Positions 27,922 through 41,817 of a stretch of 61,106 nucleotides of DNA are shown in pieces. The stretch is taken from IMG/VR virus record IMGVR_UViG_3300033553_000790; one strand, 5' to 3'. How positions within the stretch are numbered: position 1 is the stretch's first letter; each line of letters starts with the position of its first letter. The notes beneath the pieces are model-generated. The model was not told the DNA's origin. It saw only the letters and a list, made by a program, of their open reading frames with translations, and made no database searches. The translations under genes were made by a program, and so were the position numbers. The stretch comes from an uncultured virus (IMG/VR IMGVR_UViG_3300033553_000790) (Duplodnaviria; Heunggongvirae; Uroviricota; Caudoviricetes).

Positions 27922-28683
27922 CTACTTGATGTTACGTAGAATATTGTCGTTCAGCTCACCTAACAAACTTAACTGTTCACTAGTTTTAGTTGGGAATATA
28001 CGCCCGTATTTGTTGAAATCACTATAGTCTTTAAGTAATCTTAAAGAATGGTTAATTTTCTTCTTCAACCTATTTTCAGCACCTAATAGGAAAAAAGATT
28101 TAGAAGCTGACATATACTTATGTGACATGCTTTGGGCACCTGGTGTTGAGCTAGAGATTAAAGTAGCTACCCCCTCATCAATAAAAGCCCTAGGGGAGAA
28201 CTTAGCTTCAAGAGCTTGGTGAGATCCTAAAGCTAATATATCTAAATATTGTTTTAATCCCAAGATCAGAACGTCGTCTCCGCCTTTAACGGTTTGTTTT
28301 GACTTAACAGAACCTGAAACAGTTATGTCATCTATGACTATGTACCTATCATCGTCGCTTCCGGCATGAGAGTTACCATAAAGCTGTGAACCGTGAACAG
28401 TGGCAAGAGCAACCGGCATCTCCTTATAATAAGACTTATCCGAATTCTTATTATAACTGAACCCAGGGTAATTCAACCAGTCTTTTTTCCAGTCGCCGTG
28501 TTGTATTTGTGATTGGGAGTTAGCTAACTTAGTTAGTGTAACCCCAAAGTTGTATCCGTTATCTAGAGTGTACATATCTTTGTCCAAACCACCGAACGTT
28601 GATCTGAAAATCTCGGGAATATTCTCATACCATTCGTCCGCAAGGACAGGGCCTGTTTTAGTCTTTATGTAACATGTATTCAT
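27922..28683 (-). CDS. Pol-beta superfamily nucleotidyltransferase
   Basis: HGSQLYG...SDDDRY (GS-x-DxD) motif. Confidence 0.7.
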   Translation of the reverse strand: MNTCYIKTKTGPVLADEWYENIPEIFRSTFGGLDKDMYTLDNGYNFGVTLTKLANSQSQIQHGDWKKDWLNYPGFSYNKNSDKSYYKEMPVALATVHGSQLYGNSHAGSDDDRYIVIDDITVSGSVKSKQTVKGGDDVLILGLKQYLDILALGSHQALEAKFSPRAFIDEGVATLISSSTPGAQSMSHKYMSASKSFFLLGAENRLKKKINHSLRLLKDYSDFNKYGRIFPTKTSEQLSLLGELNDNILRNIK

Positions 28684-28799
28684 AGGTCTTTAGCTAACGT
28701 AAAGATATGAAAATAAAAAAACTTGACATTTTTCTTAAAAATGTTATGATAGTGCCGATAGTTAACACATGTAGAGAGAACACATACTTAAAAAATGTT

Positions 28800-28828
28800 T
28801 TGACATTTATGAAAGTGTGTGCTATACT
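28800..28828 (+). promoter_or_regulatory. Housekeeping-sigma promoter at head of tRNA array
   Basis: TTGACA-17-TATACT with extended TG; second TTGACA-16-TATGAT at 28723-28750. Confidence 0.75.
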
Positions 28829-29153: not shown

Positions 29154-29227
29154 AGGGGTATAGCTCAGTCCGGCCAGAGCAACGGTCTCCAAAACCGTGG
29201 TCGTGGGTTCGAATCCCTCTACCCCTG
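29154..29227 (+). tRNA. tRNA-Trp(CCA)
   Basis: Cloverleaf; ACGGT-CTCCAAA-ACCGT. Confidence 0.95.
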
Positions 29228-29438
29228 CTTTAACCTTTGGTGGTATTATTACATCATATCGGTTTTGTATATTGATAAATGAACAGTGAAATAGCCTTAG
29301 GGCAGAACTAGCAGCAGGTATGCTGTGTCATCTTGTTAGTTAGTTCTTTACAGAAAAAAATCATGAAGTGGCATGGCTATCAAGCTTGCTGCTAGTTCTG
29401 TCCTAATTACTTGTGAGCATACTATGTTCACAAGTTTT

Positions 29439-29512
29439 CGGGGTGTAGCTCAGCTTGGTAGAGCGCGCGGTTTGGGACCGTGAAGTCGCAGGTTCGAATC
29501 CTGTCACCCCGA
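29439..29512 (+). tRNA. tRNA-Pro(TGG)
   Basis: Cloverleaf; loop TTTGGGA. Confidence 0.95.
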
Positions 29513-29611
29513 CGTTATAATTATTAAAGAGCTGCCCTTTGTGCGGAGGTGGGGGTAGATGAACAATGGGGTCTTACCCAGTTACCTTATGTAAGACTAC
29601 GCGATTGTCAT

Positions 29612-29685
29612 GGCGGTGTAGTGTTAGCGGCTTAGCACATCAGTCTTCCAAACTGAGAGCACGGGTTCGAATCCCGTTACCGTCT
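29612..29685 (+). tRNA. tRNA-Gly(TCC)
   Basis: Cloverleaf; loop CTTCCAA. Confidence 0.93.
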
Positions 29686-29699
29686 CTTTAACTAAATAT

Positions 29700-29773
29700 C
29701 CGGGTGTAGCGCAGCTTGGTAGCGCATCTGCTTTGGGAGCAGAGGGCCGCAGGTTCAAATCCTGTCACCCGGA
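29700..29773 (+). tRNA. tRNA-Pro(TGG)
   Basis: Cloverleaf; loop TTTGGGA. Confidence 0.95.
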
Positions 29774-29954
29774 CGATAAAAATGAATTTTATTTTCCAAT
29801 AAAAAATAGGTCGGTATGAGGTAGGCTCTTATCTGTATCACCCCTATAAGACTGTATCCTTGGCACAGTCAGCTTGAAGTTAGCCTACAAGTGTTCATGG
29901 AAGTTCTTCTCCTTCTTCGTGATGAACAAGCCAAGATTTTTTATAAGTAAGAAT

Positions 29955-30036
29955 GCTCTTGTGGCGGAATTGGCAGACGCGCTTGATTCAAAATCAAGTA
30001 CTTTCTAGTGTGTGGGTTCAAGTCCCACCAGGAGCA
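29955..30036 (+). tRNA. tRNA-Leu(CAA)
   Basis: Type II cloverleaf; loop TTCAAAA. Confidence 0.95.
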
Positions 30037-30163
30037 CTTAGGATATTAAGTTGTTGTGACGATAAACTTAATGTTTCTAAAAGGACAGAATAGGTCACTC
30101 AATGCTGTCCTTCATGGCCCTATGGCCCAAAAGGTAGAGGCAATGTTTTTTACAAGATAAAAA

Positions 30164-30236
30164 CTGTGATTAGCTCAACTGGTAGAGCAACGGCCCTGTA
30201 AAGCTGTACGTGAAGGTTCAAATCCTTTGTCGCAGA
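30164..30236 (+). tRNA. Nested tRNA-like element 1 (8-nt loop CCTGTAAA, Tyr-GTA-like)
   Basis: CTGTGAT/GTCGCAG acceptor, GCTC/GAGC D stem, ACGGC/GCTGT stem, GAAGG-TTCAAAT-CCTTT T arm. Confidence 0.65.
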
Positions 30237-30246
30237 TATTGTAAAA

Positions 30247-30319
30247 ATATGGTTAGTTTAAAATAAAAGCGGTCGCCATTATGAGGCGGCAGATGAGAGT
30301 GAAAATCTCCCACCATATT
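30247..30319 (+). tRNA. Nested tRNA-like element 2 (TAT anticodon, atypical D and T loops)
   Basis: ATATGGT/ACCATAT acceptor, GTCGCC-ATTATGA-GGCGGC arm, GAGAG-TGAAAAT-CTCCC T-like arm. Confidence 0.55.
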
Positions 30320-30392
30320 AAATAAACAACATAGGTATTGGTTCGAATCCAATTAGGGCTACTATTGTTAACAAAACAATAACAAAATAAAG

Positions 30393-30755
30393 ATAAGAAA
30401 TCCGGGTAATCGCAACAGCTCAAAAAGTTGTTGAGGAAAGTCCGAGCTTCACAGAACAGAATAGTGGGTAACACCCACCCGTGGTGACACGCGGACAAGT
30501 GCAACAGAAAGTATACCGCCTACGCTCATGAGAATGAACCGGTGAGGCTGAAACGGTGGGGTAAGAGCCCACCAGTGTTCATAGTGATATGGGCAGCTAG
30601 GTAAACTCTATTCGAAGCAAGTCCAAAAAGAAACGTCAGTAGATTGTTCGTCAAGTTTCAGGTAGGGCGCTAGAGGTTTACGGTAACGTAAATTCGAGAT
30701 GGATGATTACCCAAATAGAAATATTTGACAAAACTCGGCTTATAGGGTATCTTAT
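30393..30755 (+). ncRNA. rnpB: RNase P RNA (bacterial type A)
   Basis: GAGGAAAGTCC, AGTGCAACAGAAA, AAACGG..GGTAAGAGC, GGTAAAC..GAAGCAA and ACAAAACTCGGCTTA conserved blocks. Confidence 0.95.
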
Positions 30756-30767
30756 ATTTTATTCAAT

Positions 30768-30841
30768 GGTGGCTGTAGCTCAATTGGTAGAGCGCCTGGT
30801 TGTGGTCCAGGATGTTGTGGGTTCGATTCCCATCAGTCACA
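30768..30841 (+). tRNA. tRNA-His(GTG)
   Basis: Cloverleaf with G-1; loop TTGTGGT. Confidence 0.93.
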
Positions 30842-30842
30842 C

Positions 30843-30927
30843 GTAACAGTAACCCGCTGGGTTTGCGGAGCGGCCTATGGAGGCCGTGGGAGTCGCACTT
30901 CCGAGGTTCAAGTCCTCGCTGATTACC
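30843..30927 (+). ncRNA. Non-canonical type II tRNA-like RNA (bulged acceptor, 8-nt loop CTATGGAG)
   Basis: GTAACAG/CTGATTAC, CCGC/GCGG, GCGGC/GCCGT, variable arm, CGAGG-TTCAAGT-CCTCG. Confidence 0.65.
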
Positions 30928-31019
30928 TACTACGCGCAGTCTGTGAGAGCTGTGGTCCGAGTTATAGAGGTTTCCAAGGAACGTTCACCAGCGTATGCGA
31001 AGAACTCCTGTCTCACAAT

Positions 31020-31093
31020 CGCTTGGTAGCTCAGTTGGTTAGAGCACTTGATTGTCAATCAAGAGGTCGCGGGTTCAAGTCCCGTCCAGGTGG
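31020..31093 (+). tRNA. tRNA-Asp(GTC)
   Basis: Cloverleaf; loop TTGTCAA. Confidence 0.9.
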
Positions 31094-31250
31094 CAAAACA
31101 TTACTGTAATATGTGGTTACAATAATGGACATTAGATAAAAAAGATATAGGGGTTTGTCGCCCTTTAGCCTCCGTTAGGGGGTTTAGTTCAAATGGTAAC
31201 ATGAGGATCACATACCTGATGTAGAGAACACTTTTATCTGAGATTTCAAT

Positions 31251-31324
31251 GGTGATTGTAGCTTAATTGGTAGAGCGCCTGGTTGTGGTCCAGGTCGTTG
31301 CGGGTTCGAGTCCCGTCAGTCACC
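31251..31324 (+). tRNA. tRNA-His(GTG)
   Basis: Cloverleaf with G-1:C73. Confidence 0.95.
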
Positions 31325-31330
31325 CTCGGA

Positions 31331-31404
31331 CGCGTGGTAGGGCAATTCGGTAGCCCGTCAGCCTCATAAGCTGAAGGTTGTAGGTTCAAATCCTACCCAC
31401 GCTA
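31331..31404 (+). tRNA. tRNA-Met(CAT), initiator-like, copy 1
   Basis: C1:T72 mismatch, loop CTCATAA. Confidence 0.9.
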
Positions 31405-31429
31405 CTATCTTTACAGTATTAAAAATAAT

Positions 31430-31503
31430 GGCCCCGTAGCTCAGTTGGTTAGAGCATCTGCTTGTCACGCAGAAGGTCGCCGGTTCAAGTCCGGTCGGGG
31501 TCG
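31430..31503 (+). tRNA. tRNA-Asp(GTC)
   Basis: Cloverleaf; loop TTGTCAC. Confidence 0.95.
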
Positions 31504-31626
31504 CACAAAAGTAATAATAAACATACAAGTCATAAGTTGACTTTCAATAAACAGTATGCTATTATCTACCTTGTAAGTGAATCACAACAGGACGCGCCTA
31601 TAAAGTTCGATAGGGAAAGGGTGCGT

Positions 31627-31700
31627 GCCCCCATAGAGTAGCGGCCTATCTCATCTGACTTTCACTCAGAAGAACGCGGGTTCGAATCCCGCTGGGGGTA
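31627..31700 (+). tRNA. tRNA-Glu(TTC)
   Basis: Cloverleaf; loop CTTTCAC. Confidence 0.95.
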
Positions 31701-31861
31701 CTCTCACACGAGAACCTTATTTTAACCTCCCCAGGTACGAAAGTAAGCAAGGAATAAAATAAGTTTGAATATTTTTGACAAATTTATTCATGTATGATAC
31801 GATATTACATGTATCAACAAATAAAAAGTGGTAAGTAGTAAAAACGAATTTATTATCCTGA

Positions 31862-31934
31862 TCCTTCATAGCTCAATTGGCAGAGCGCGGAGCTGTTAAC
31901 TCTGAGGTTCCTGGTTCGAGTCCAGGTGGGGGAG
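31862..31934 (+). tRNA. tRNA-Asn(GTT)
   Basis: Cloverleaf; loop CTGTTAA. Confidence 0.95.
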
Positions 31935-31944
31935 CGTAAATTTT

Positions 31945-32020
31945 GGCTGTGTAGCTCAGCGGTTAGAGCGTCCGCCTGTCACGTGGAAGGTCGCGGGTTC
32001 GAACCCCGTCAAGGTCGCCA
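31945..32020 (+). tRNA. tRNA-Asp(GTC), CCA encoded
   Basis: Cloverleaf; loop CTGTCAC. Confidence 0.92.
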
Positions 32021-32042
32021 AATTCGCTTAGTAAACATCTAA

Positions 32043-32116
32043 GCTCCTGTAGAGTAATCGGTTATCTCGTCACCCTCTCAAGGTGAAGGTTGCGGGTTCA
32101 AATCCCGTCAGGAGTA
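32043..32116 (+). tRNA. tRNA-Glu(CTC)
   Basis: Cloverleaf; loop CTCTCAA. Confidence 0.95.
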
Positions 32117-32137
32117 CATAAGTAAAATAAGTTCGGA

Positions 32138-32211
32138 CGCGTGGTAGAGCAATTCGGTAGCTCGTCAGCCTCATAAGCTGAAGGTTGTAGGTTCAAATCC
32201 TGCCCACGCTA
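32138..32211 (+). tRNA. tRNA-Met(CAT), initiator-like, copy 2
   Basis: C1:T72 mismatch, loop CTCATAA. Confidence 0.9.
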
Positions 32212-32348
32212 CTATAGGTAAGGTCGTTGAAAACTGCCGGAGTTGAAAAAGACTCCTTCGAGCCCCAGTTAGAGGCACCCTATGAGGTTGAGGAATTTTC
32301 GGCTCTCACGGTGAATACCAAACATGAAAGTTCACCATTATTTTCGGA

Positions 32349-32422
32349 CGCGTGGTAGGGCAATTCGGTAGCCCGTCAGCCTCATAAGCTGAAGGTTGTA
32401 GGTTCAAATCCTGCCCACGCTA
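32349..32422 (+). tRNA. tRNA-Met(CAT), initiator-like, copy 3
   Basis: C1:T72 mismatch, loop CTCATAA. Confidence 0.9.
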
Positions 32423-32480
32423 CTAAACTCCTGTTAGATGCCTAAAAAGGGGAATACAAAAAGATAGAGAAACACACCAT

Positions 32481-32565
32481 GCGGGTGTGGCGGAATTGGC
32501 AGACGCGCTAGGTTTAGGCCCTAGTGTCCGGTTAGGACGTGGAGGTTCAAATCCTCTTACCCGCA
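32481..32565 (+). tRNA. tRNA-Leu(TAG)
   Basis: Type II cloverleaf; loop TTTAGGC. Confidence 0.95.
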
Positions 32566-32674
32566 CGATTATTACGGTACGGAACCTCTCTGCGAAGAGA
32601 TAGTTCCGTACCACATAACTTCATTCGTTTGCTTGTAAAGCCTGCGTGAATGACGTATTCACCGCCGATATAAG

Positions 32675-32865
32675 TTGCACATCAGCGAACCTTACTACCG
32701 GGGAGTTAAATGAAAAAATTGCTCTTATTTGGTATTAAAACACTAAATAATACAGCATACATAAAAAAGTAAACCCTCTATAGGAGGGCTTAGGGGTATT
32801 ATAGTTATACCGCAGAAGCTGAAATTTAGTTTCTGAAACATAAAACACAGGTTTTATGGAACTAT
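32675..32865 (+). repeat. About 190-nt multi-hairpin repeat, copy 1
   Basis: Similar to 33512-33700. Confidence 0.85.
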
Positions 32866-32906
32866 TCTCGGAATGGTTTAATAAATAAACAAAAAGCCAT
32901 TCGCGT

Positions 32907-32979
32907 GGGCCTCTAGCTCAGTTGGTAGAGCAGCGGACTTTTAATCCTCGGGTCGTGGGTTCGAGCCCCACGGGGCCTA
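32907..32979 (+). tRNA. tRNA-Lys(TTT)
   Basis: Cloverleaf; loop CTTTTAA. Confidence 0.93.
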
Positions 32980-33120
32980 CATATAACCACTCGGTGTCCC
33001 TGATATCTCTTTTTGTAAGAGGTATCAACACTCCGGGTTTTCAGATATAGTACACAAAGAACATCGCTTACAGCACTGAAGGACGCTTCAGGGCTCAGAT
33101 GAAACAAAAACTATATCAAC

Positions 33121-33193
33121 GGGCCTCTAGCTCAGTTGGTAGAGCTACGGACTTTTAATCCGCAGGTCGTGGGTTCGAGCCCCACGGGGCCCA
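33121..33193 (+). tRNA. tRNA-Lys(TTT)
   Basis: Cloverleaf; loop CTTTTAA. Confidence 0.93.
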
Positions 33194-33253
33194 CTTGACA
33201 AACATACTGTTCGTATGGTATGGTTTTAACAAATAGATGAGTAATCATCATTT

Positions 33254-33326
33254 GCCTCTGTAGCTCAGTTGGTAGAGCAGACGACTCTTAATCGTCGGGT
33301 CGTGGGTTCGAGTCCCACCGGGGGTA
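33254..33326 (+). tRNA. tRNA-Lys(CTT)
   Basis: Cloverleaf; loop CTCTTAA. Confidence 0.95.
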
Positions 33327-33377
33327 CTAGTATGACGACTGATATCATATAACATCACTGTTTACTGAACAGTGAAT

Positions 33378-33450
33378 GGGCTTGTGGCGCAACTGGTAGC
33401 GCAGGACCTTTGCAAGGTCAAGGTTAGGGGTTCGAGTCCCCTCAGGTCCA
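33378..33450 (+). tRNA. tRNA-Ala(TGC)
   Basis: Cloverleaf; G3:U70; loop TTTGCAA. Confidence 0.95.
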
Positions 33451-33511
33451 CAACTATACAATAGTTAAAATCGCATGAGAAATAACTCCTCTAGTGTTCT
33501 ATTTATATAGT

Positions 33512-33700
33512 TTGCACATGGGCGAGCCTTACTAGGTGAGTTACATGAAAAACATTGCTCTTATTTGGCGCTAAAAACACTAAATAATACGGCATACATA
33601 TAAAGTAAACCCTCTATAAGGGGCTTAGAGGTATCATAGCTATACCACAGAGACTAAAATTTAGTTTCTGAAACATAAAACACAGGTTTTATGGAACTAT
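33512..33700 (+). repeat. About 190-nt multi-hairpin repeat, copy 2
   Basis: Similar to 32675-32865. Confidence 0.85.
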
Positions 33701-33863
33701 GTAGAAATATATGCCGCTGTTTTACCTGATGAAGAAAGAATTAACAGAGCGTATGAAAGTATGTCAACGGATGAGACTTTCGAATTAGGTGACTTTATCA
33801 GACAGTTGTCTGATAAATAAAAATAGTGTACTTAAGTTTAACCGCTTAGGTACATTATTTGAT

Positions 33864-33936
33864 GGGGATTTAGCTCAGTTGGTAGAGCGTTTGAATGGCA
33901 TTCAAAAGGTCGCCGGTTCGACCCCGGTAATCTCCA
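33864..33936 (+). tRNA. tRNA-Ala(GGC)
   Basis: Cloverleaf; G3:U70; loop ATGGCAT. Confidence 0.95.
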
Positions 33937-33952
33937 CTTTGTTTTTTCCTAT

Positions 33953-34023
33953 TCCCTGGTAGTGTAATGGCAGCATAACTGACTTTGGATCAGTTGGTCG
34001 AGGTTCGAACCCTCGCCGGGGAG
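33953..34023 (+). tRNA. tRNA-Gln(TTG)
   Basis: Cloverleaf; loop CTTTGGA. Confidence 0.93.
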
Positions 34024-34065
34024 CATAATATGTCGATATATACTATAACCAAAGGTTGTGAGCAT

Positions 34066-36030
34066 ATGAGAACATCCGCTAAGCTGTCTGATATGACATT
34101 AGCTAATGAGCTGCACCCAACCTTAAATGATAATAGTTTAGATATAGTGAAACTAACCGCTGGAAGTCATAAAAAACTTTGGTGGGAATGTTCAAAGAAC
34201 GAAGAGCACGAACCGTGGTTCACTTCTGTTAGGGTTAGAGTACAAGGAGCTGGTTGCCCAACTTGTGCCGGTAAGATAGTTGAGCGAACAAAATCTATAG
34301 AATACACCCACCCAGTTATAGCTGAACAGCTCGATAGTATCAACCAGGTGTCAGCTTCATCAGTTACAGCCGGTAGCAACAAAACGTATGTTTGGTCAAA
34401 CAAAGAATGCGGTCACGTTTGGGAACAAAAAGTTTATGACAGAACTAAGCAAGGGCCGGAATGCCCAGTATGTCAGTCTAACATCATAATAGAGGGAGTG
34501 AACAGCCTTTTCGATAAGCGCCCTGATTTAAAAACCTTTTGGAGTGAAAATAATATTTTAGATTTTACGAAACTAAGTTTAGGAAGCCATAAAGAAGTAG
34601 AGTGGGTTTGTTCAGAAGGCCATATTTACAAAGAGAAGGTTGTTGTTCGAGTTAAACGTAAAACATGCCCGGTTTGCGCTGGTCGCCTATTCCAGGAAGG
34701 TATTAACGATTTAGTTACCATTTACCCTTCAATAGAAGAAGTTTGGTCTGATAATAACAAGGAAACAGCTAACCAAGTTGTTTTCAACACTAAAGACGAA
34801 GCAGTATGGAATGAAAAATGTGGGCACACATATAGCGCCCCAGTTAAGATGAGAGTGAAGCATGAAGGGTGCCTGATTTGTAAAAACATTATTGTTGTCA
34901 AAGGTATCAACGATTTACTTACAACACACAGCGAGTTAGCTCAAACCTGGGGTGACAATAACGAAAAAGCTCCTTACGAAGTTTCAGCTGGTAGTGCATA
35001 CAGAGCTGAATGGGAATGCGGCAAAGGTCATGAATGGGAAGCTTTCGTTTACTCCCGTACAAGAGGTAGCGGATGTCCACAATGTAACGCCGTAAATTTC
35101 GTTTCTAAAGGTGAGCAAGAACTGTTGGATATAGTTTCTATATTAGCTGAAGGTAAAACAATAGAACAGTCGAACCGAAAAGTTCTTCAAGGCCAAGAGC
35201 TTGACATTCTCATCCCAGAAATCAACTTAGCTGTTGAGTTCAACGGTTTATACTGGCATAATGAGAATAGTGGGAAAGATAACAGATATCATCAAAATAA
35301 AATGTTGAACGCCAACAAAGCTGGTATAAAACTTATCCAAGTCTGGGAAGATGAATGGGTAGAGAAGAAAGCAATCGTAATAAGAATGTTAGCTTCAAAA
35401 ATGAACGCCAGCGTAGAAGTATTAACTGAAGCGTTAAAAAGCATAGGGACTGATGAAGAAGACATAGTGAACATGATTTCAAAACATGGAGCCAGAGAAT
35501 GCGTAACAGAAGAAATTACGTATGAAGAAGCAACCGCTTTCCTGAATGACAACCACATACAAGGTCCCGCTAAAGGAACCCTCTACACCGCGCTGAAAGA
35601 CAAACAAGGTACAGTAAGGGCCGTAATGGTTTCCCTCAAAAAAGGTGAAACCTGGGAAATAGTCAGATATGCAACATTCGGACATATACCTGGTGGTTTC
35701 ACTAAACTAATATCAAACGTTGAGAAAAAACATGGTGTTAAAAAATGGGTTACTTTCTCTGACGGGATAATATCAGAAGGGAGCCTATACAAAAACAACG
35801 GTTTCGTAAAAGATAAAACTATAGACCCGGACTACAAGTACATTGTAAACGGCGAAAGGGTGCATAAGTTTAATTACAGGTTGAAGAGATTTCGTAATGA
35901 CCCGACCCTACAATATGTTGAAGGGCACACGGAACGTCAACTGGCTGAGCTTAATGGTATCCCCCGGATATGGGATGCCGGTAAAATAAGATGGTTAAAG
36001 ATAACAGCTAAAGGAGGGCCTGATGAATAA
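34066..36030 (+). CDS. Zinc-ribbon repeat protein with Vsr/Hef-like endonuclease domain (putative homing endonuclease)
   Basis: Repeated GSxKxxWxC..H.W..R...CPxC units; ELDILIP..LAVEFNGLYWH..IQVWEDEW; NHIQG..RIWDAGK tail; start moved past tRNA-Gln. Confidence 0.8.
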   Translation: MRTSAKLSDMTLANELHPTLNDNSLDIVKLTAGSHKKLWWECSKNEEHEPWFTSVRVRVQGAGCPTCAGKIVERTKSIEYTHPVIAEQLDSINQVSASSVTAGSNKTYVWSNKECGHVWEQKVYDRTKQGPECPVCQSNIIIEGVNSLFDKRPDLKTFWSENNILDFTKLSLGSHKEVEWVCSEGHIYKEKVVVRVKRKTCPVCAGRLFQEGINDLVTIYPSIEEVWSDNNKETANQVVFNTKDEAVWNEKCGHTYSAPVKMRVKHEGCLICKNIIVVKGINDLLTTHSELAQTWGDNNEKAPYEVSAGSAYRAEWECGKGHEWEAFVYSRTRGSGCPQCNAVNFVSKGEQELLDIVSILAEGKTIEQSNRKVLQGQELDILIPEINLAVEFNGLYWHNENSGKDNRYHQNKMLNANKAGIKLIQVWEDEWVEKKAIVIRMLASKMNASVEVLTEALKSIGTDEEDIVNMISKHGARECVTEEITYEEATAFLNDNHIQGPAKGTLYTALKDKQGTVRAVMVSLKKGETWEIVRYATFGHIPGGFTKLISNVEKKHGVKKWVTFSDGIISEGSLYKNNGFVKDKTIDPDYKYIVNGERVHKFNYRLKRFRNDPTLQYVEGHTERQLAELNGIPRIWDAGKIRWLKITAKGGPDE

Positions 36031-37711
36031 TAAAGAAACGATAAATGTCACGCACTCCTACCTAGTTCAGGAATGGGTGGATGAAAAGAACATCCCGTTA
36101 TTACCTTCAGATGTTACTGCAGGTTCACATAAAAAAGTTTGGTGGAGATGCTCCGAGGGGCATGAGTGGAAAGCCCAGGTCAGTTCCCGCTGCTTATATA
36201 GTTCGGGTTGCCCTAGGTGCTCTGAGATAAAAAACTCGGTACGCACAGTTAGGAAACCCTTAGCCACCCTTTATCCTGAAATTTTTAATGAACTTAAGGA
36301 CAAGGAAATCACTGTTGTTGGTGCGGGATCACATAAAGAATTAGCATGGGTATGCGCTGAAGGCCACGAAGAAAAAGAGAAAGTTTTTGCACGGGTTAAA
36401 AGAGGCGGCTGCTCAGAGTGTAGAGGTAATGGCACATCCAAGTATAATAAAGGAGCGAAGCCCCTGCCTAAAACCATCGCGGACCAGTGGCACCCAACAA
36501 AGAATTTACCATTAACTTTAGATAAAGTTTCTTACGGTTCAACTAAAAGAGTTTGGTGGCTATGTGACAAAGGGCATGAATGGGAAGGCCGAATTAACGC
36601 AAGGAAATCTGACACTTGTTTTGAGTGCTATAAAGCAAAAACTCTAGTATTCGAAAATAGTTTCGCGAGCAGAAAAGAACAGCTTGTAGAATGGGGCGAC
36701 AATAAGCTACCAGAAGAAGTGAGTTTAGGCTCCAAGAAAAGAATAATGTGGAAATGTTCAAATAACCCTGAGCACACATGGTCAACTTTTGCTTATCAGC
36801 GTGGTAAAATAAATCCAAGCGGATGTCCGGAATGTTCGAACAACATTTTTACTTCAAAAGCAGAAGATGAGATAGCGAACCATATTCTAAGTTTAGGTGA
36901 AAACATAGAAATAATCCGTAATGATAGAAAAATTCTTGACGGAGAGTATGAGCTTGACATCTATTTACCAGAATATAAATTAGCTATTGAATATAATGGT
37001 TTGTATTGGCATAATGAAAGTCATCGGAAAGATAAAAACTATCACTATAACAAGTATAAAGCTTGCGCCGATAAAGGCATCCAACTTATCCAAATCTGGG
37101 AAGATGACTGGACAGGCAAATCTTCTATTGTAATGAAAATGATTTCGCATAAATTATCGCTATCTAAAGGCAATAAGACAATGGCTAGAAAAACAAGCAT
37201 TTCTGAAATAAGTTACAATGAAGCTTCTGCTTTCTTAGATAACAACCATATTCAGGGTGCCTCTAAGGGAAGCAAATATTGTGCTCTCGTTAATACTGAA
37301 GGTAAAAAAGTCGCAGTTTTAGTTGCCGTAAAGCGAACATCCGAAGAATGGGAGATTGCTCGTTATGCTACTGAAATAATTGTTGCTGGTGGGTTCACAA
37401 AGATGTTAAAGTATTTAGAAAGAACCAACCCGGAGATAAAAAGATGGGTTACCTTCTCAGATAACTGTATAAGCAACGGAGCCCTTTATGTGAACAATGG
37501 GTTTACTGTAGACAGACGCCTCAGATGTGACTACAGTTATGTTATCAATCAGAAGCGCATACATAAATTCAATTATAGGTTAAAGATGTTCAAAGACAAT
37601 CCTGACCTACTATTTGATGACAACTACACGGAAACCCAACTGGCTGAGCTTAACGGTATCCCCCGGATATGGGATGCCGGTAAAATAAGATGGTTAAAGA
37701 TAATACAATAA
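36023..37711 (+). CDS. Paralogous zinc-ribbon repeat Hef-like endonuclease
   Basis: Same architecture with fewer repeats; ELDIYLP..AIEYNGLYWH..IQIWEDDW. Confidence 0.8.
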   Translation: MNNKETINVTHSYLVQEWVDEKNIPLLPSDVTAGSHKKVWWRCSEGHEWKAQVSSRCLYSSGCPRCSEIKNSVRTVRKPLATLYPEIFNELKDKEITVVGAGSHKELAWVCAEGHEEKEKVFARVKRGGCSECRGNGTSKYNKGAKPLPKTIADQWHPTKNLPLTLDKVSYGSTKRVWWLCDKGHEWEGRINARKSDTCFECYKAKTLVFENSFASRKEQLVEWGDNKLPEEVSLGSKKRIMWKCSNNPEHTWSTFAYQRGKINPSGCPECSNNIFTSKAEDEIANHILSLGENIEIIRNDRKILDGEYELDIYLPEYKLAIEYNGLYWHNESHRKDKNYHYNKYKACADKGIQLIQIWEDDWTGKSSIVMKMISHKLSLSKGNKTMARKTSISEISYNEASAFLDNNHIQGASKGSKYCALVNTEGKKVAVLVAVKRTSEEWEIARYATEIIVAGGFTKMLKYLERTNPEIKRWVTFSDNCISNGALYVNNGFTVDRRLRCDYSYVINQKRIHKFNYRLKMFKDNPDLLFDDNYTETQLAELNGIPRIWDAGKIRWLKIIQ

Positions 37712-37739
37712 GTAAGCACACTGTTATCAGCTGTGCTAT

Positions 37740-37811
37740 TGCCTCATAGTGTAACTGGCAGCACTAGTGACTCTGAATCACTCAGTCTAGGTTCGAATCC
37801 TGGTGAGGCAG
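37740..37811 (+). tRNA. tRNA-Gln(CTG)
   Basis: Cloverleaf; loop CTCTGAA. Confidence 0.95.
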
Positions 37812-37877
37812 CGCATTAAAATAAATAAAACTTGACAAATATAGAATACTAGTGTAGTGTTCATATTGAAAGTTCAG

Positions 37878-37958
37878 GGGAGATTGTCCGAGCGGCCAAA
37901 GGAAGCGGTCTGTAAAACCGTTGCAACAGCTACGTGGGTTCGAATCCCTCATCTCCCA
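37878..37958 (+). tRNA. tRNA-Tyr(GTA)
   Basis: Type II cloverleaf; loop CTGTAAA. Confidence 0.93.
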
Positions 37959-38027
37959 CTTTAGTTCAAGGGTTAGTCACCCTTGGGCTAGACACTACCT
38001 TCAGGTAAGACTAACCTGCTGGCGGTG

Positions 38028-38098
38028 AGTTCAATAGCTCAATGGATAAGAGCACCACCGCCCTGGTGGGGATACCAGTTCGATTCTGGTTTGGACAC
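38028..38098 (+). ncRNA. tRNA-like RNA with 5-nt anticodon loop
   Basis: GCTC/GAGC D stem, CCACC-GCCCT-GGTGG, ACCAG-TTCGATT-CTGGT. Confidence 0.7.
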
Positions 38099-38099
38099 A

Positions 38100-38170
38100 G
38101 ATTAGTATAGCTTAACGGCAAAGCACCAGCCGACGCTGGTTAGTTTAGGTTCGAATCCTAATGCTTATCG
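38100..38170 (+). ncRNA. tRNA-like RNA with 4-nt anticodon loop
   Basis: GCTT/AAGC D stem, CCAGC-CGAC-GCTGG, TTAGG-TTCGAAT-CCTAA. Confidence 0.7.
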
Positions 38171-38282
38171 AGTGAGAACTATGTTGCTAGTATAATTTAA
38201 GCATGCGTACATAAGTAACGAAGTTCTTGCGGAGTGTGAGTGGTGCGTTGATTATGCATGGTTGACGTATTGTTTACACTAT

Positions 38283-38355
38283 GGCTCTGTAGCTCAGTTG
38301 GTAGAGCGTTCGCCTGAAGAGCGAAAGGTCACCGGTTCGATCCCGGTTGGAGCCA
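38283..38355 (+). tRNA. tRNA-Phe(GAA)
   Basis: Cloverleaf; loop CTGAAGA. Confidence 0.95.
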
Positions 38356-38370
38356 CTTCAGATCAGTTTT

Positions 38371-38871
38371 TTAGTTAATTTCCCAGAGTTCAAGGATTTT
38401 ATCCTCGTCAATGTCCCAGTTTAGAACATCAATACCACTTAGGCTAAGTTCTTTAACGGGGGAGTAGCTACGGTCTCTGAGTTGAATATTCTCAACTACT
38501 CCCGATACCAGATAATCGTCGTTACCTTCTCCCCTCATCATGACCGTTACCCATTGGCCGGTTTTCAACATCTTAGGGTCAATTTTGGTGAAGGTTTTCC
38601 CTTTAGTTGATATTAGGTTGTCTTTGTTAACTGAGGGTACTTCAGTTATTGTGCTTGTGAAATTTGTGATTAGGCAACCGGAGGGCGTGTAGGGGGTGTC
38701 ACTAACGTCTGTGGTTTGGGCAACTTTTGCTAGGAACTCTCCTGTTCTTGGTTTGAAATCATTGTCGCTTGATGTTATGATGGTTCCTTTTTCAATTACA
38801 GCGATTTCTATAGAGATTTTCTTTCCAGCGGGGATTTTCTTAGAATCATTGTAAAAATCAATTATGCTCAT
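38371..38871 (-). CDS. Hypothetical protein, paralog of 39032-39529
   Basis: Shares IEKGTI..F.PR.GE and L.STKGKTFT.ID motifs. Confidence 0.7.
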   Translation of the reverse strand: MSIIDFYNDSKKIPAGKKISIEIAVIEKGTIITSSDNDFKPRTGEFLAKVAQTTDVSDTPYTPSGCLITNFTSTITEVPSVNKDNLISTKGKTFTKIDPKMLKTGQWVTVMMRGEGNDDYLVSGVVENIQLRDRSYSPVKELSLSGIDVLNWDIDEDKILELWEIN

Positions 38872-38946
38872 CTGTTTTCTCCTGGTTTTTATAAGTTTTA
38901 TTTATCTAACGGTATTTTTGATGATACAATCCAAAGGTAAGGCTTC

Positions 38947-39021
<75 letters not shown>

Positions 39022-39031
39022 GGAAAAGTTA

Positions 39032-39529
39032 TTAACTTATAGTCCAGACATCAAGTATTGTATCTGGGTCCGTGATGTCTCGTGAGAAAATATCAATACC
39101 GCTGATAGTTAGTTGCGGGTAAAACCTATCGGGTACGAAATCCTCATCAACTGTTCCAGCGACTATACGGTAATCTTTACCTTTCATTGATTTCAGGGAG
39201 AGGGCAACCCAGTATCTTTTGTCTAACATTTCGGTATCAATATGTGTAAATGTTTTTCCTTTAGTTGATAACAAGTTCCTTTTATCTATAGATGAAACTT
39301 CTGCGATGTAAGATTCTGGACTTGTGAGTTGGAACCCAGATTCGGTTTGAGCGGGGGAACCGGGGCTTGTTGAGTAACCAATTTTCCCTATTATCTCCCC
39401 TGATCTGGGGCTGAAAGCACTATCGCTTGCTGTTACGATAGTTCCTTTTTCAATGGCGCTATTTTTTATATGTATTTTAGTTCCTACGGATACTTTCTTC
39501 AAATCGTTGTTAGCGTCACGTATGCTCAT
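39032..39529 (-). CDS. Hypothetical protein, paralog of 38371-38871
   Basis: Same length and motifs as paralog. Confidence 0.7.
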   Translation of the reverse strand: MSIRDANNDLKKVSVGTKIHIKNSAIEKGTIVTASDSAFSPRSGEIIGKIGYSTSPGSPAQTESGFQLTSPESYIAEVSSIDKRNLLSTKGKTFTHIDTEMLDKRYWVALSLKSMKGKDYRIVAGTVDEDFVPDRFYPQLTISGIDIFSRDITDPDTILDVWTIS

Positions 39530-39621
39530 TGGTTTCCCCTTAGTTTCTGTAAAGATGCTTCGTTGTGATGTTTTCCTAACGGTAAAAAGGGGAGGGTTGG
39601 AGTTAACAGTTAATTTTTCAT

Positions 39622-39705
39622 GTCATTGTGGCGGAACGGTAGACGCGCTAGCTTGAGGTGCTAGTGCCTGTAACAGGCGTGTGGGTTCGACTCCCATCAG
39701 TGACA
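39622..39705 (+). tRNA. tRNA-Leu(GAG)
   Basis: Type II cloverleaf; loop TTGAGGT. Confidence 0.95.
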
Positions 39706-39796
39706 CGGATAATAAATAATGACAGCAGTTATTTATGGCATACATTTAGTTTACTACTTGTATGTTTCTACCCTGGTCAAAACAGGTTGCTGTATT

Positions 39797-39869
39797 GCGG
39801 TGGTAGCTCAGTTGGTAGAGCATAACCTTGCCAAGGTTAAGGTCGCGGGTTCGAACCCCGTCCACCGCT
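39797..39869 (+). tRNA. tRNA-Gly(GCC)
   Basis: Cloverleaf; loop TTGCCAA. Confidence 0.95.
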
Positions 39870-39949
39870 CCTTTAGAATATTTAATGTACCTCACGTTAG
39901 GATATTCTGTAATGATTACCTGGTTAGATGACAAGGAGATTGGTTAAGG

Positions 39950-40183
39950 ATGGATAAAAATTTAATAACTTTTTGTCTTATAGAAGTTGAAACAAATTAT
40001 TCTGGGGTGGGTCGCTACACTAGGAAACATCAAGAGCTTTTTGATAAAATATTTGTTAATCTTGACCTTTCTGGTTTTAACGAATACAGGGATCATGTTA
40101 TTGAAATAGAGAACTTACTAAAGAGCCGTCAGCAGCATCAAGATGTGTCTGAAAGCATTAGCGAGTTTATGGATATAATTTAA
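39950..40183 (+). CDS. Small hypothetical protein
   Basis: 77 aa ORF with AAGGAG RBS. Confidence 0.5.
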   Translation: MDKNLITFCLIEVETNYSGVGRYTRKHQELFDKIFVNLDLSGFNEYRDHVIEIENLLKSRQQHQDVSESISEFMDII

Positions 40184-40189
40184 CACATT

Positions 40190-40260
40190 GCGGATGTAGC
40201 TCAACGGTAGAGCCTCAGTCTTCCAAACTGATGGTGCGGGTTCGATCCCCGTCATCCGCT
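40190..40260 (+). tRNA. tRNA-Gly(TCC)
   Basis: Cloverleaf; loop CTTCCAA. Confidence 0.95.
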
Positions 40261-40303
40261 CACAGTAACGGTTTCAACTAAACACGCCGTTAGATTAGGA
40301 ATT

Positions 40304-40819: not shown

Positions 40820-40827
40820 GAAATATT

Positions 40828-40912
40828 GTCGTTATGGCGGAATTGGCAGACGCGCTAGCCTCAGAAGTTAGTGTCCTTAACGGACGTGCGGGTTCAACTC
40901 CCGCTAACGACA
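40828..40912 (+). tRNA. tRNA-Leu(CAG)
   Basis: Type II cloverleaf; loop CTCAGAA. Confidence 0.95.
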
Positions 40913-40926
40913 CGCAAACACAATTT

Positions 40927-40999
40927 GTCCTTATAGCTCAGTGGATAGAGCAGCTGGCTTCGAACCAGCGTGTCGGGGGTTCGAATCCCTCTAAGGGCG
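40927..40999 (+). tRNA. tRNA-Arg(TCG)
   Basis: Cloverleaf; loop CTTCGAA. Confidence 0.93.
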
Positions 41000-41146: not shown

Positions 41147-41174
41147 CTTCAAAAACAAAGTCTTATGACTTTAT

Positions 41175-41805: not shown

Positions 41806-41817
41806 AAACACGAACTT

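What the first reader, a model, noticed from the sequence alone, without database searches (positions are those of the whole stretch)
30116..30361. Nested tRNA: two tRNA-like genes inside the anticodon loop of a third
Seen: a tRNA 5' half (GGCCCTA acceptor, D arm, ATGTT) and its matching 3' half (AACAT, AGGT, ATTGG-TTCGAAT-CCAAT, TAGGGCT-A) lie 180 nt apart. The gap holds two complete cloverleaves. One (30164-30236) has an 8-nt loop CCTGTAAA and is bracketed by a TTTTACAA/TTGTAAAA stem. The other (30247-30319) has a perfect 7-bp acceptor, a TAT anticodon and atypical D/T loops. No group I intron core is recognisable, and the RNase P RNA gene starts about 30 nt downstream. Inference: either a single three-elbow RNA (decoy or scaffold), or a precursor from which the inner tRNAs are excised, leaving a split outer tRNA that could be ligated. 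I am not aware of a described bacterial equivalent.
Basis: partly seen in the sequence, partly recalled or inferred. Interest (0 to 1): 0.87.

Follow-up and report, generated by a model that had tools for sequence, protein, structure and literature searches.

The report
Two tRNA genes nested inside a third
In the big tRNA gene cluster of a large phage-like DNA element, one tRNA gene is split in its anticodon loop by 180 bases that carry two further tRNA-type genes, most likely through DNA insertion rather than a new kind of RNA splicing.

Summary
ARAGORN in intron mode calls 30116-30362 as one tRNA with a 173-nt insert. It made no intron calls in 5 shuffles or the reversed window. Rfam scores the inner units as tRNA at 48.5 and 31.3 bits and finds no intron or ribozyme.

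Contigs from another study hold a roughly 90% identical relative with the same nesting, so this is not an assembly artefact.

- **Inner tRNA 1 (30164-30236):** a selected gene. It has 3 two-sided compensatory pairs, 5 G-U/Watson-Crick switches, 0 broken pairs of 21, and an invariant 8-nt loop.
- **Outer tRNA:** no compensatory change. Its anticodon stem is hit three times in five bases, or kept only by a register shift. The flanking spacers change from 16 to 22 nt and from 8 to 5 nt.
- **Bracket:** a 12-nt inverted repeat (11/12) that decays in the relative.

Best reading (0.55): a DNA-level insertion, probably an inverted-repeat tRNA cassette. RNase P and 3' processing would then free the inner tRNAs and leave the outer halves unjoined. 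Scaffold and true-splicing readings remain possible. I found no published equivalent.

The parts
30045..30072 (+). Spacer hairpin (8-bp stem, 12-nt loop) between tRNA-Leu(CAA) and the nested unit. It serves as an internal positive control for RNA-level selection.
   Evidence: Inverted repeat I4. Against the relative it shows 3 two-sided compensatory pairs, 2 A-T to G-T changes and 0 broken pairs of 8.
30081..30112 (+). Leader hairpin directly upstream of the outer tRNA
   Evidence: Inverted repeat I2, 11-nt arms, 91% complementary. 0 of 42 bases differ from the relative across 30074-30115.
30116..30147 (+). Outer tRNA 5' half: acceptor 5' strand, D arm and the 5' strand of the anticodon stem
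   Evidence: ARAGORN intron mode and the pair list. 1 of 32 bases differs in the relative, changing A-T to G-T in the acceptor stem.
30147..30158 (+). Left arm of the 12-nt inverted repeat bracketing inner tRNA 1. It starts at the last base of the outer anticodon stem.
   Evidence: I1, 92% complementary. No further copy in the window beyond the two arms. In the relative it has a 4-nt insertion and one substitution.
30164..30236 (+). Inner tRNA 1: class I cloverleaf with C1-G72, discriminator A and the 8-nt anticodon loop CCTGTAAA. It could be read as GUA or UGU.
   Evidence: Rfam tRNA 48.5 bits. ARAGORN labels it tRNA-???. There are 14 substitutions and 1 deletion against the relative. These give 3 two-sided compensatory pairs, 5 G-U/Watson-Crick switches and 0 broken pairs of 21. 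The anticodon arm is invariant.
30236..30247 (+). Right arm of the inverted repeat. It begins at the discriminator of inner tRNA 1 and ends on the first base of inner unit 2.
   Evidence: In the relative it has one deletion and one uncompensated T>C change.
30247..30319 (+). Inner unit 2: a tRNA-like cloverleaf with anticodon TAT, a perfect 7-bp acceptor stem and no canonical D-loop/T-loop elbow bases
   Evidence: Rfam tRNA 31.3 bits against a threshold of 29. ARAGORN's default mode does not call it. Against the relative there are 4 substitutions and 1 deletion: one A-T to G-T, one broken 7:66 pair, and position 37 G>T. No similar sequence in 50,697 phage records.
30320..30327 (+). A-rich 8-nt tail between inner unit 2 and the 3' strand of the outer anticodon stem
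   Evidence: Read directly from the sequence. One substitution in the relative, or 3 nt shorter under the alternative alignment.
30328..30361 (+). Outer tRNA 3' half: 3' strand of the anticodon stem, 4-nt variable loop, canonical T arm, acceptor 3' strand and discriminator A. No CCA is encoded.
   Evidence: ARAGORN intron mode. Against the relative there are 3 substitutions and 1 deletion, three of them within the five bases AACAT. The T-arm plus acceptor 20-mer matches only 4 tRNA-Gln(CTG) genes in genome contigs.
30363..30381 (+). Trailer hairpin (7-bp stem) just after the outer tRNA
   Evidence: Inverted repeat I7. 0 of 36 listed differences across 30362-30397.
30394..30758 (+). Bacterial class A RNase P RNA gene, 32 nt downstream on the same strand
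   Evidence: Rfam RF00010, 289.2 bits, model positions 1-367 of 367.

Best explanation
**DNA level (inferred)**
- A resident class I tRNA gene in the element's tRNA array was split inside its anticodon loop by 180 bp of inserted DNA.
- The insert has three parts. The first is a unit bounded by a 12-nt inverted repeat that carries inner tRNA 1. The second is tRNA-like unit 2. The third is an 8-nt A-rich tail.
- The mechanism is inferred from the inverted repeat. It is probably a small cassette-type insertion, or endonuclease-triggered gene conversion of the kind known in phage tRNA clusters.

**RNA level (inferred from textbook tRNA maturation)**
- The locus is transcribed as part of the polycistronic array.
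- RNase P cuts at the 5' ends of the inner tRNAs.
- RNase Z or exonucleases make their 3' ends, and CCA is added afterwards.
- These cuts separate the outer halves. The halves are not re-joined into a decoding tRNA.

**What is shown and what is inferred**
- Shown: the architecture, the inverted repeat, the conservation of the nesting in a second lineage, and selection on the cloverleaf of inner tRNA 1 and its unusual 8-nt loop.
- Inferred: the insertion event, the processing steps, and the lack of function of the outer gene as a decoder.
For: **Selection falls on the payload, not the shell**
- Inner tRNA 1 differs from the relative at 14 substitutions plus 1 deletion. It keeps 21 of 21 pairs, with 3 two-sided compensatory pairs and an invariant anticodon arm.
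- The outer tRNA has no two-sided change. In fixed register its anticodon stem keeps only 3 of 5 pairs. Otherwise it is kept only by a register shift that lengthens the variable loop from 4 to 6 nt and puts a pyrimidine at position 37.

**No conserved junction**
- The spacers change from 16 to 22 nt and from 8 to 5 nt.
- Joining the ends that RNase P and RNase Z would leave gives a loop of 24 nt in the window and 27 nt in the relative, not 7 nt.

**The bracket behaves like DNA-level repeats, not a selected RNA stem**
- A 12-nt inverted repeat (11/12) exactly brackets inner tRNA 1.
- In the relative it gains an uncompensated mismatch and a 4-nt bulge.
- The spacer hairpin at 30045-30072, in the same alignment, covaries at 3 pairs.

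**The bracketed segment has its own history**
- It has 16 substitutions in 95 nt plus 5 indel events. The rest of 30074-30397 has 9 substitutions in 229 nt (Fisher p=0.0003).

**No self-splicing core**
- No Rfam family other than tRNA matches above noise at E<=10.

**Anticodon-loop insertions recur in this element**
- A second tRNA-like gene (47001-47128) carries a 47-nt insert in its anticodon loop, with a hairpin and a 6-nt direct repeat.
- HNH and restriction-endonuclease-like ORFs lie inside the array.

**Precedent and leads**
- As leads only: unchecked earlier notes of this scan read similar tRNA-in-tRNA loci as insertion cassettes.
Against: - All 20 outer pairs are intact in the window.
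- The outer acceptor, D and T arms stay fully paired in the relative, with 2 changes, both A-T to G-T. The outer halves are also less diverged than inner tRNA 1. RNA-level constraint on the outer fold is therefore not excluded.
- No empty site (an uninterrupted outer tRNA in a related element) was found.
- No second copy of the cassette or of its repeat arms was found, and no target-site duplication was recognised. Mobility is therefore not shown.
- The inner tRNAs (GUA or UGU, and UAU) do not look cognate to the outer anticodon remnant, which allows only UAA or UUA if the junction is intact. This differs from the 'replacement cassette' pattern in the earlier notes.
- Only one relative, about 90% identical, was available.
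- Its sequence was rebuilt from a difference table that omits 2 of 39 substitutions and up to 4 of 15 gap letters of the X3 contig.
Confidence: 0.55

Rival explanations
1. RNA-level scaffold. The outer halves are kept because their acceptor, D and T arms close the precursor into a tRNA-shaped clamp. The clamp would recruit RNase P, 3'-processing enzymes or modification enzymes, or protect the two unusual inner tRNAs until they are cut out. The outer tRNA is never a decoder.
For: - All 20 outer pairs are intact.
- In the relative the acceptor, D and T arms have only 2 changes, both preserving pairing.
- The outer elbow bases (GG in the D loop, TTCGAAT in the T loop) are canonical.
- The leader and trailer hairpins flanking the unit show 0 of 42 and 0 of 36 differences.
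- The MFE fold closes the unit with the outer acceptor stem.
- The architecture equals the engineered 'tRNA scaffold' for expressing RNAs inside an anticodon arm (recalled, not checked here).
Against: - There are no two-sided compensatory changes in the outer stems.
- Two pairing-preserving transitions out of two has about a 1 in 4 chance under neutrality, given the transition bias.
- The outer anticodon stem is hit three times in five bases.
- The other 50-odd tRNAs of the array manage without such a clamp.
- The fold z-scores are weak, at -1.7 and -1.8.
Confidence: 0.2
2. True splicing. The inner tRNAs act as excision signals, the outer halves are trimmed and ligated, and a mature outer tRNA results, with anticodon UAA or UUA if the junction is direct.
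For: - ARAGORN reconstructs a complete outer cloverleaf in both the window and the rebuilt relative.
- By established enzymology (recalled), RNase P leaves a 3'-OH on the upstream piece and RNase Z a 5'-phosphate on the downstream piece. These are the ends an ATP-dependent RNA ligase joins.
- A nucleotidyltransferase-like ORF borders the array. Its only distant relative carries the RNA-repair-associated domain PF10127.
Against: - Direct joining would give 24- and 27-nt loops. The spacer lengths and the bases next to the stem differ between the two relatives.
- In the relative every 7-nt junction puts T at position 37, or else the stem is broken.
- TAA is the stop codon of 33 of 44 ORFs, so a UUA reader would be harmful.
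- A UAA reader on a class I body does not fit bacterial tRNA-Leu, which is class II (recalled).
- No ligase gene lies in the window.
Confidence: 0.06
3. A single stable three-elbow RNA that is not cut. It would act as a decoy or sponge for tRNA-binding enzymes or tRNA-targeting defence nucleases.
For: - Phage tRNAs are known counter-measures to tRNA-cleaving defences (PMC10264068 and PMC11464382, search listing and abstract start; PMC11555353, abstract).
- The array holds several further aberrant tRNA-like genes with 6-nt, 8-nt and 47-nt loops.
- Inner tRNA 1 carries a Tyr-type loop with one extra base.
Against: - Inner tRNA 1 has an accessible single-stranded A-rich leader and a standard acceptor stem, so RNase P should cut it.
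- Its covariation pattern is that of an ordinary tRNA.
- An RNase P RNA gene sits 32 nt downstream.
- The bracket stem, which would hold the three-way shape, is not maintained.
Confidence: 0.05
4. Chance resemblance or assembly artefact.
For: - The spacers are low in complexity and A/T-rich.
- The fold z-score is only -1.7.
- Inner unit 2 is only 2 bits above the Rfam threshold.
Against: - 0 intron-type calls in 6 control sequences of 61 kb, and 1 minor call in 365 kb of viral loci.
- The nesting is present in contigs from two runs of an independent study, with about 10% divergence.
Confidence: 0.02

Closest known systems
Group I intron-containing bacterial tRNA genes (tRNA-Leu(UAA), tRNA-fMet and others; review PMC4033280, passages read)
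   Same: A bacterial-type tRNA gene is interrupted inside its anticodon loop by an insert of about 170-250 nt. ARAGORN even places the break after U34 of a 'UAA' anticodon.
   Different: No group I core is detected (no Rfam hit at E<=10). The insert is fully accounted for by two cloverleaves and short spacers. There is no G among the last 8 insert bases, so no terminal guanosine.
Archaeal intron-containing and split tRNAs (bulge-helix-bulge splicing, Nanoarchaeum halves; PMC4033280 passages; PMC3218864, PMC3491384 and PMC4390854 as search listings with abstract starts only)
   Same: Two tRNA halves can pair through the acceptor and anticodon stems, with intervening sequence in the anticodon loop.
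   Different: No bulge-helix-bulge motif appears in the folds. The same array encodes bacterial class A RNase P RNA and tmRNA. The halves lie on one transcript.
Homing-endonuclease-driven exchange of phage tRNA gene regions (T4 SegB; PMC2330249, abstract read)
   Same: A phage tRNA cluster acts as an arena for mobile DNA. Nuclease genes (HNH, DUF4379 with a restriction-endonuclease-like domain) are interspersed in this array. The bracketed segment has its own divergence history.
   Different: No endonuclease gene lies in or next to the insert. SegB targets the T-arm sequence, not the anticodon loop. Nothing here shows cleavage or homing.
tRNA-in-tRNA 'replacement cassettes' noted earlier in this scan for Patescibacteria genomes (unpublished, unchecked AI notes)
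   Same: A complete tRNA bracketed by an inverted repeat sits in the anticodon loop of a still foldable outer tRNA gene. Thr(UGU)-type and Ile(UAU) payloads also occur in those notes.
   Different: Here the host is a large phage-like element's tRNA array. The insert carries two payloads. The payloads do not appear cognate to the outer gene. No other copy of the repeat was found.
tRNA punctuation of polycistronic transcripts and the engineered tRNA scaffold (both recalled, not checked here)
   Same: tRNA-shaped units serve as RNase P and RNase Z cutting marks inside a longer RNA. An RNA placed in the anticodon arm of a carrier tRNA is the design of the scaffold method.
   Different: In this natural case the inserted RNAs are tRNAs themselves, so processing should destroy the carrier.

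Membership tests
tRNA (Rfam RF00005 / ARAGORN cloverleaf) | Cloverleaf score above the curated threshold | tested here: met
   Inner 1 scores 48.5 bits and inner 2 scores 31.3 bits against a threshold of 29. Inner 2 is marginal and ARAGORN's default mode does not call it. The outer tRNA is called only with introns allowed.
tRNA (Rfam RF00005 / ARAGORN cloverleaf) | 7-nt anticodon loop with U33 and a purine at position 37 | tested here: not met
   Inner 1 has an 8-nt loop, conserved in the relative. Inner 2 meets the feature in the window, but position 37 is T in the relative. The outer loop is interrupted by 180 nt.
tRNA (Rfam RF00005 / ARAGORN cloverleaf) | Stems maintained by compensatory change between relatives | tested here: inconclusive
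   Met for inner 1: 3 two-sided pairs and 0 broken of 21. Not shown for inner 2: 1 wobble change and 1 broken pair. Not shown for the outer tRNA: 0 two-sided changes and an altered anticodon stem. Only one relative was available.
Group I intron in a tRNA anticodon loop | Conserved catalytic core recognised by the Rfam group I model | tested here: not met
   No group I hit at E<=10 in 30050-30420 on either strand.
Group I intron in a tRNA anticodon loop | Terminal guanosine at the 3' end of the intron | tested here: not met
   The last 8 bases before the 3' strand of the outer stem are AAATAAAC, with no G.
Archaeal/eukaryal enzymatically spliced tRNA intron | Bulge-helix-bulge motif at the exon-intron junctions | tested here: not met
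   MFE and centroid folds show no such motif. The context is bacterial, with RNase P class A and tmRNA.
Inverted-repeat insertion cassette (MITE/MIC-like; earlier notes of this scan) | Terminal inverted repeats flanking the payload | tested here: met
   12-nt arms, 92% complementary, exactly bracketing inner tRNA 1.
Inverted-repeat insertion cassette (MITE/MIC-like; earlier notes of this scan) | Several copies or other evidence of mobility (empty site, copy elsewhere) | tested here: not met
   There is no other copy of the arm in the window. The five exact patterns from the nested unit found nothing in the collection each was run in. The only relative is also filled.
Inverted-repeat insertion cassette (MITE/MIC-like; earlier notes of this scan) | Target-site duplication | tested here: not met
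   No convincing direct repeat at either junction. The 21-nt, 71% repeat D1 lies upstream and not at the junction.
Inverted-repeat insertion cassette (MITE/MIC-like; earlier notes of this scan) | Payload tRNA cognate to the split resident tRNA | tested here: inconclusive
   The outer junction allows only UAA or UUA for a 7-nt loop, against GUA/UGU and UAU for the payloads. The outer body is closest to the window's tRNA-Ile(GAU) (69%). Its T arm and acceptor match tRNA-Gln(CTG) genes. The isotype is unresolved.

The most novel reading that the evidence does not exclude
This would be a tRNA-punctuated splicing pathway. The two inner tRNAs would be the intron and also its excision signal. RNase P would leave a 3'-OH on the outer 5' half and RNase Z a 5'-phosphate on the outer 3' half. 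After trimming, an ATP-dependent RNA ligase would seal the halves into a working tRNA. One locus would then yield three tRNAs without a splicing endonuclease or a ribozyme. The outer tRNA's production would depend on RNase P, whose RNA is encoded 32 nt downstream.
Probability: 0.05. Interest if true: 0.9.

Novelty: new variant of a known kind. Interest (0 to 1): 0.6.

Why it matters
**Against what is in print**
- A 2014 review states that bacterial tRNA genes are structurally uniform and are interrupted only by group I or II introns (PMC4033280, passages read).
- This locus is a bacterial-type tRNA gene interrupted by other tRNA genes, and the layout is conserved in two lineages of a large phage-like element.
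- Five full-text searches found no published equivalent.

**If the insertion reading is right**
- tRNA genes can themselves be the cargo of small insertions aimed at anticodon loops.
- Phage tRNA arrays would then be built partly in this way.
- Standard tRNA finders report only the inner gene and miss the shell.

**Inner tRNA 1**
- It is a naturally selected tRNA with an 8-nt anticodon loop and the C1-G72 plus A73 pattern. I recall that pattern as the archaeal/eukaryal tyrosine identity set.
- It is a concrete candidate for unusual decoding, or for escape from tRNA-cleaving defences.

**If the minority splicing reading were right**
- It would be a new route of RNA splicing.

Tried and rejected
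**Ribozyme or intron families**
- Rfam at E<=10 on 30050-30420 found only tRNA hits and noise.

**Search for homologues**
- blastn against phages and plasmids found only generic tRNA-Leu and RNase P matches.
- Exact patterns found nothing:
  - outer 3' 20-mer in viral contigs
  - outer 5' 22-mer in metagenome contigs
  - inner-2 22-mer in viral contigs
  - inner-1 23-mer in genome contigs
  - inner-1 22-mer in metagenome contigs
- A looser inner-1 pattern gave 13 viral loci. ARAGORN called tRNA-Thr(TGT) in 9 of them, an odd-loop 'tRNA-???' in 1 and no tRNA in 3. None was nested.
- 48 viral loci carry the RNase P motif. None resembles the nested region or holds a nested tRNA.

**Relatives through proteins**
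- The neighbouring nucleotidyltransferase-like ORF has no relative in viral contigs.
- It has only 2 besides itself among 5.8 billion proteins.
- 54 RecA-like loci were found. The five highest-ranked of these records did not share the element's SbcC-like protein, and the five largest RNase P-bearing records did not share its FtsK-like protein.

**Whole genome and RNA evidence**
- No genome is held for this window.
- No RNA holder is listed. The one small metatranscriptome of the source study gave only contigs over the conserved RNase P core at under 95% likeness, probably from other organisms.

**Isotype of the outer tRNA**
- Unresolved.
- Its T arm and acceptor match 4 tRNA-Gln(CTG) genes.
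- The best in-window match is tRNA-Ile(GAU) at 69%.
- Phage blastn of the halves gave Arg, Leu and Met, or chance hits.

**Other checks**
- Target-site duplication and further copies of the inverted repeat: none found.
- A GIY-YIG nuclease of the kind named in earlier notes: none among the ORFs scanned.
- Recoding of TAA: rejected, because TAA ends 33 of 44 ORFs.
- A covariance model of the whole 246-nt unit was planned but not built, because with a single sequence it would mostly rediscover ordinary tRNAs.
Full report
**Context**

The window holds a plus-strand array of 55 ARAGORN tRNA genes (29154-46082). The same array carries a full-length bacterial class A RNase P RNA (30394-30758, 289 bits) and a tmRNA (46127-46502).

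Flanking ORFs look like replication and recombination genes of a large phage-like or other extrachromosomal element. They include SbcCD-like, FtsK-like, DnaB-like, RecA/UvsX-like and HNH proteins. No virion genes lie in the window.

No genome is held for the window. A neighbouring protein is recorded on a contig of 229,613 nt. The source appears to be a cold-spring metagenome.

Two strong sigma-70-like consensus matches (11 of 12 positions) lie at 28723-28828, upstream of the array. These are consensus scans only. A polycistronic transcript is therefore plausible but not shown.

**The observation**

- All 20 outer pairs form.
- The same search made no intron call in 5 shuffles or in the reversed window.
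- In 115 viral loci (365 kb, 154 tRNAs) it made one minor call, an 11-nt intron.
- The insert holds inner tRNA 1 (30164-30236, Rfam 48.5 bits, 8-nt loop CCTGTAAA).
- It also holds inner unit 2 (30247-30319, 31.3 bits against a threshold of 29). Unit 2 has anticodon TAT, a perfect acceptor stem and no canonical elbow bases.
- The bracket is a 12-nt inverted repeat with one mismatch. It runs from the last base of the outer anticodon stem (30147) to the first base of unit 2 (30247).
- Rfam finds no intron or ribozyme at E<=10.
- None of the three units encodes CCA. By a loose string check, 14 of the 55 array tRNAs do.

**A relative**

The index of sequencing runs shows the stretch in two runs of the probable source study. 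It shows parts of it in runs of two other studies.

I laid four runs on the stretch at 80% likeness. Contigs of X3 and X5, both from one sediment study, cover 29950-30397 and 29950-30523. They have 39 and 46 substitutions and 15 and 16 gap letters. The whole nested arrangement is present, with no joints.

This rules out an assembly artefact and gives one comparison at about 90% identity.

I rebuilt the variant in a script from the printed differences. For the X3 contig, the table omits 2 of 39 substitutions and up to 4 of 15 gap letters. Single positions could therefore be missing.

**What the comparison says**

| Part | Changes against the relative | Effect on pairing |
|---|---|---|
| Inner tRNA 1 | 14 substitutions, 1 D-loop deletion | 21 of 21 pairs kept; 3 two-sided compensatory pairs; 5 G-U/Watson-Crick switches; anticodon arm and 8-nt loop invariant |
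| Spacer hairpin 30045-30072 | Changes on both arms | 3 two-sided compensatory pairs; 0 broken of 8 |
| Outer acceptor, D and T arms | 2 changes | Both A-T to G-T; no two-sided change |
| Outer anticodon stem, 3' strand | 1 deletion, 2 substitutions in five bases | 3 of 5 pairs in fixed register |
| Bracket | Changes on both arms | 1 uncompensated A-C mismatch; 4-nt bulge |
| Inner unit 2 | 4 substitutions, 1 deletion | 1 pairing-preserving change; 1 broken 7:66 pair; position 37 G to T |

- The spacer hairpin shows that the alignment can reveal RNA-level selection where it exists.
- ARAGORN still finds a 5-bp outer anticodon stem in the relative. It does so only by shifting the register. The variable loop then grows from 4 to 6 nt, and T sits at position 37 in every possible 7-nt junction.
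- The spacers next to the outer stem change from 16 to 22 nt and from 8 to 5 nt.
- Divergence is uneven. The bracketed segment has 16 substitutions in 95 nt and 5 indel events. The rest of 30074-30397 has 9 substitutions in 229 nt (Fisher p=0.0003). This points to a separate history for that segment.

**Mechanism**

The most economical reading is a DNA-level insertion into the anticodon loop of a resident tRNA gene. Ordinary maturation of the inner tRNAs would follow.

By textbook enzymology, RNase P and RNase Z cuts at the inner tRNAs would sever the outer halves. Joining the resulting ends directly would give 24- or 27-nt loops. I see no conserved junction that could yield a 7-nt anticodon loop.

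If the junction is taken at face value, the outer anticodon could only be UAA or UUA.
- UAA does not fit, because bacterial tRNA-Leu is class II (recalled).
- UUA does not fit, because TAA ends 33 of 44 ORFs.

Insertion into anticodon loops seems to recur in this element.
- Rfam with permissive filters finds a class II tRNA-like gene at 47001-47128 (32.5 bits) with 47 nt in place of its anticodon loop.
- Those 47 nt fold into two hairpins. A 6-nt direct repeat, CTCATT, lies within them.
- This gene shares a 17-nt T-arm string with inner tRNA 1.

Nuclease ORFs lie in the array. Two carry DUF4379 with a restriction-endonuclease-like domain, and one is an HNH protein. T4 SegB is a precedent for endonuclease-driven exchange of phage tRNA regions (PMC2330249, abstract).

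**Earlier notes of this scan**

These unchecked notes list many tRNA-in-tRNA loci in Patescibacteria. They read them as inverted-repeat cassettes that carry a replacement tRNA. The notes raised my odds for insertion.

Testing their features here gave a mixed result.
- Met: the inverted repeat and the anticodon-loop site.
- Not met: extra copies, a target-site duplication and a GIY-YIG nuclease.
- Not shown: cognate payloads.

**What stays open**

The outer cloverleaf is fully intact in the window. Its acceptor, D and T arms are intact in the relative. With one close relative I cannot exclude selection on the outer fold as a processing clamp, which I rate at 0.2. True splicing (0.06) and an uncut three-elbow decoy (0.05) are less likely, for the reasons above.

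The isotype of the outer gene is unresolved.
- The 20-mer spanning its T arm and acceptor 3' strand (one IUPAC R allowed) occurs in genome contigs only in 4 tRNA-Gln(CTG) genes of Bacilli-type MAGs.
- Its closest in-window relative is tRNA-Ile(GAU) at 69%.

Inner unit 2 may be a real AUA reader. ATA is the commonest isoleucine codon of the window's ORFs (525 of 1,064), and no other TAT tRNA is present. Against this, its score is marginal and the position-37 change in the relative is a warning sign.

Inner tRNA 1 combines C1-G72, A73, a short variable loop and a Tyr-type loop with one extra C. I recall C1-G72 with A73 as the archaeal/eukaryal tyrosine identity set. I did not test charging.

**Literature**

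Five full-text searches found no description of tRNA genes nested in a bacterial or phage tRNA gene.

- A 2014 review states that bacterial tRNA genes are interrupted only by group I or II introns (PMC4033280, passages read).
- For work on phage tRNAs as counter-defence, I read one abstract (PMC11555353). The others I saw only as search listings with abstract starts (PMC10264068, PMC11464382).
- Papers outside the held library were not searched.

**Verdict**

This is a real, conserved and apparently undescribed gene arrangement. The most likely origin is ordinary: insertion, followed by standard tRNA processing. The interesting parts are the nested layout itself, a selected tRNA with an 8-nt anticodon loop, and an array unusually rich in aberrant tRNA-like genes.

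Noticed in passing
window 47001-47129: A class II tRNA-like gene has 47 nt in place of its anticodon loop (Rfam tRNA 32.5 bits, found only with permissive filters). The 47 nt fold into two hairpins. A 6-nt direct repeat, CTCATT, lies within them. The gene shares a 17-nt T-arm string with inner tRNA 1 (30212-30228 = 47104-47120)..
   Followed up: partly
window 30394-30758; loci L009-L012, L014, L016, L019, L024, L034, L036, L041, L045, L046: An RNase P RNA gene is embedded in a tRNA array. Of 48 IMG/VR loci holding the conserved RNase P motif, 13 have 4-19 tRNA genes within 1.2 kb, so this pairing recurs in viral contigs. My searches found no paper linking RNase P RNA with jumbo phages.
   Followed up: partly
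window 30843-30926: A tRNA-like element lies directly after tRNA-His, with a perfect T arm (CGAGG-TTCAAGT-CCTCG), a 6-bp anticodon-type stem and a 6-nt loop. ARAGORN does not call it. Its only Rfam match is a weak tRNA-Sec-like hit (18.7 bits against a threshold of 47)..
   Followed up: partly
window 38027-38170: Two tRNA-type genes abut with no spacer. Both are drawn with 8-pair acceptor stems. The second has a 6-nt anticodon loop and is labelled 'tRNA-???'.
   Followed up: no
window 30045-30072: A spacer hairpin between tRNA-Leu(CAA) and the nested unit shows 3 two-sided compensatory pairs against the relative, although 12 of 34 bases differ across 30040-30073. It is a selected RNA or DNA hairpin of unknown role.
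   Followed up: partly
window 33985-37711, 43777-44208, 47504-48088: Protein genes are interspersed in the tRNA array. Two large ORFs carry repeated DUF4379 zinc fingers and a weak restriction-endonuclease-like domain. There is also a SocA/Panacea antitoxin-domain ORF and an HNH endonuclease.
   Followed up: no
window, 44 long ORFs: Codon use is strongly A/T-biased. ATA is the commonest isoleucine codon (525 of 1,064). TAA ends 33 of 44 ORFs, TAG 9 and TGA 2.
   Followed up: partly
window 48254-50455: The DnaB-like helicase has about 330 residues between its N-terminal (13-120) and C-terminal (454-679) domains. Part of this stretch (218-307) matches families named terminase large subunit, so it may be an intein or another inserted domain.
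   Followed up: no
window 27922-28683 (minus strand): A nucleotidyltransferase-like ORF borders the array. It has only two relatives among 5.8 billion proteins. One is 64% identical, and one is weak and carries PF10127, an RNA-repair-associated nucleotidyltransferase family.
   Followed up: partly
locus L111 384-457: A viral-contig tRNA is 81% identical to inner tRNA 1. It also has an oversized anticodon loop containing CCTGTAAA, and ARAGORN labels it 'tRNA-???(gtaa)'. It is not nested.
   Followed up: partly
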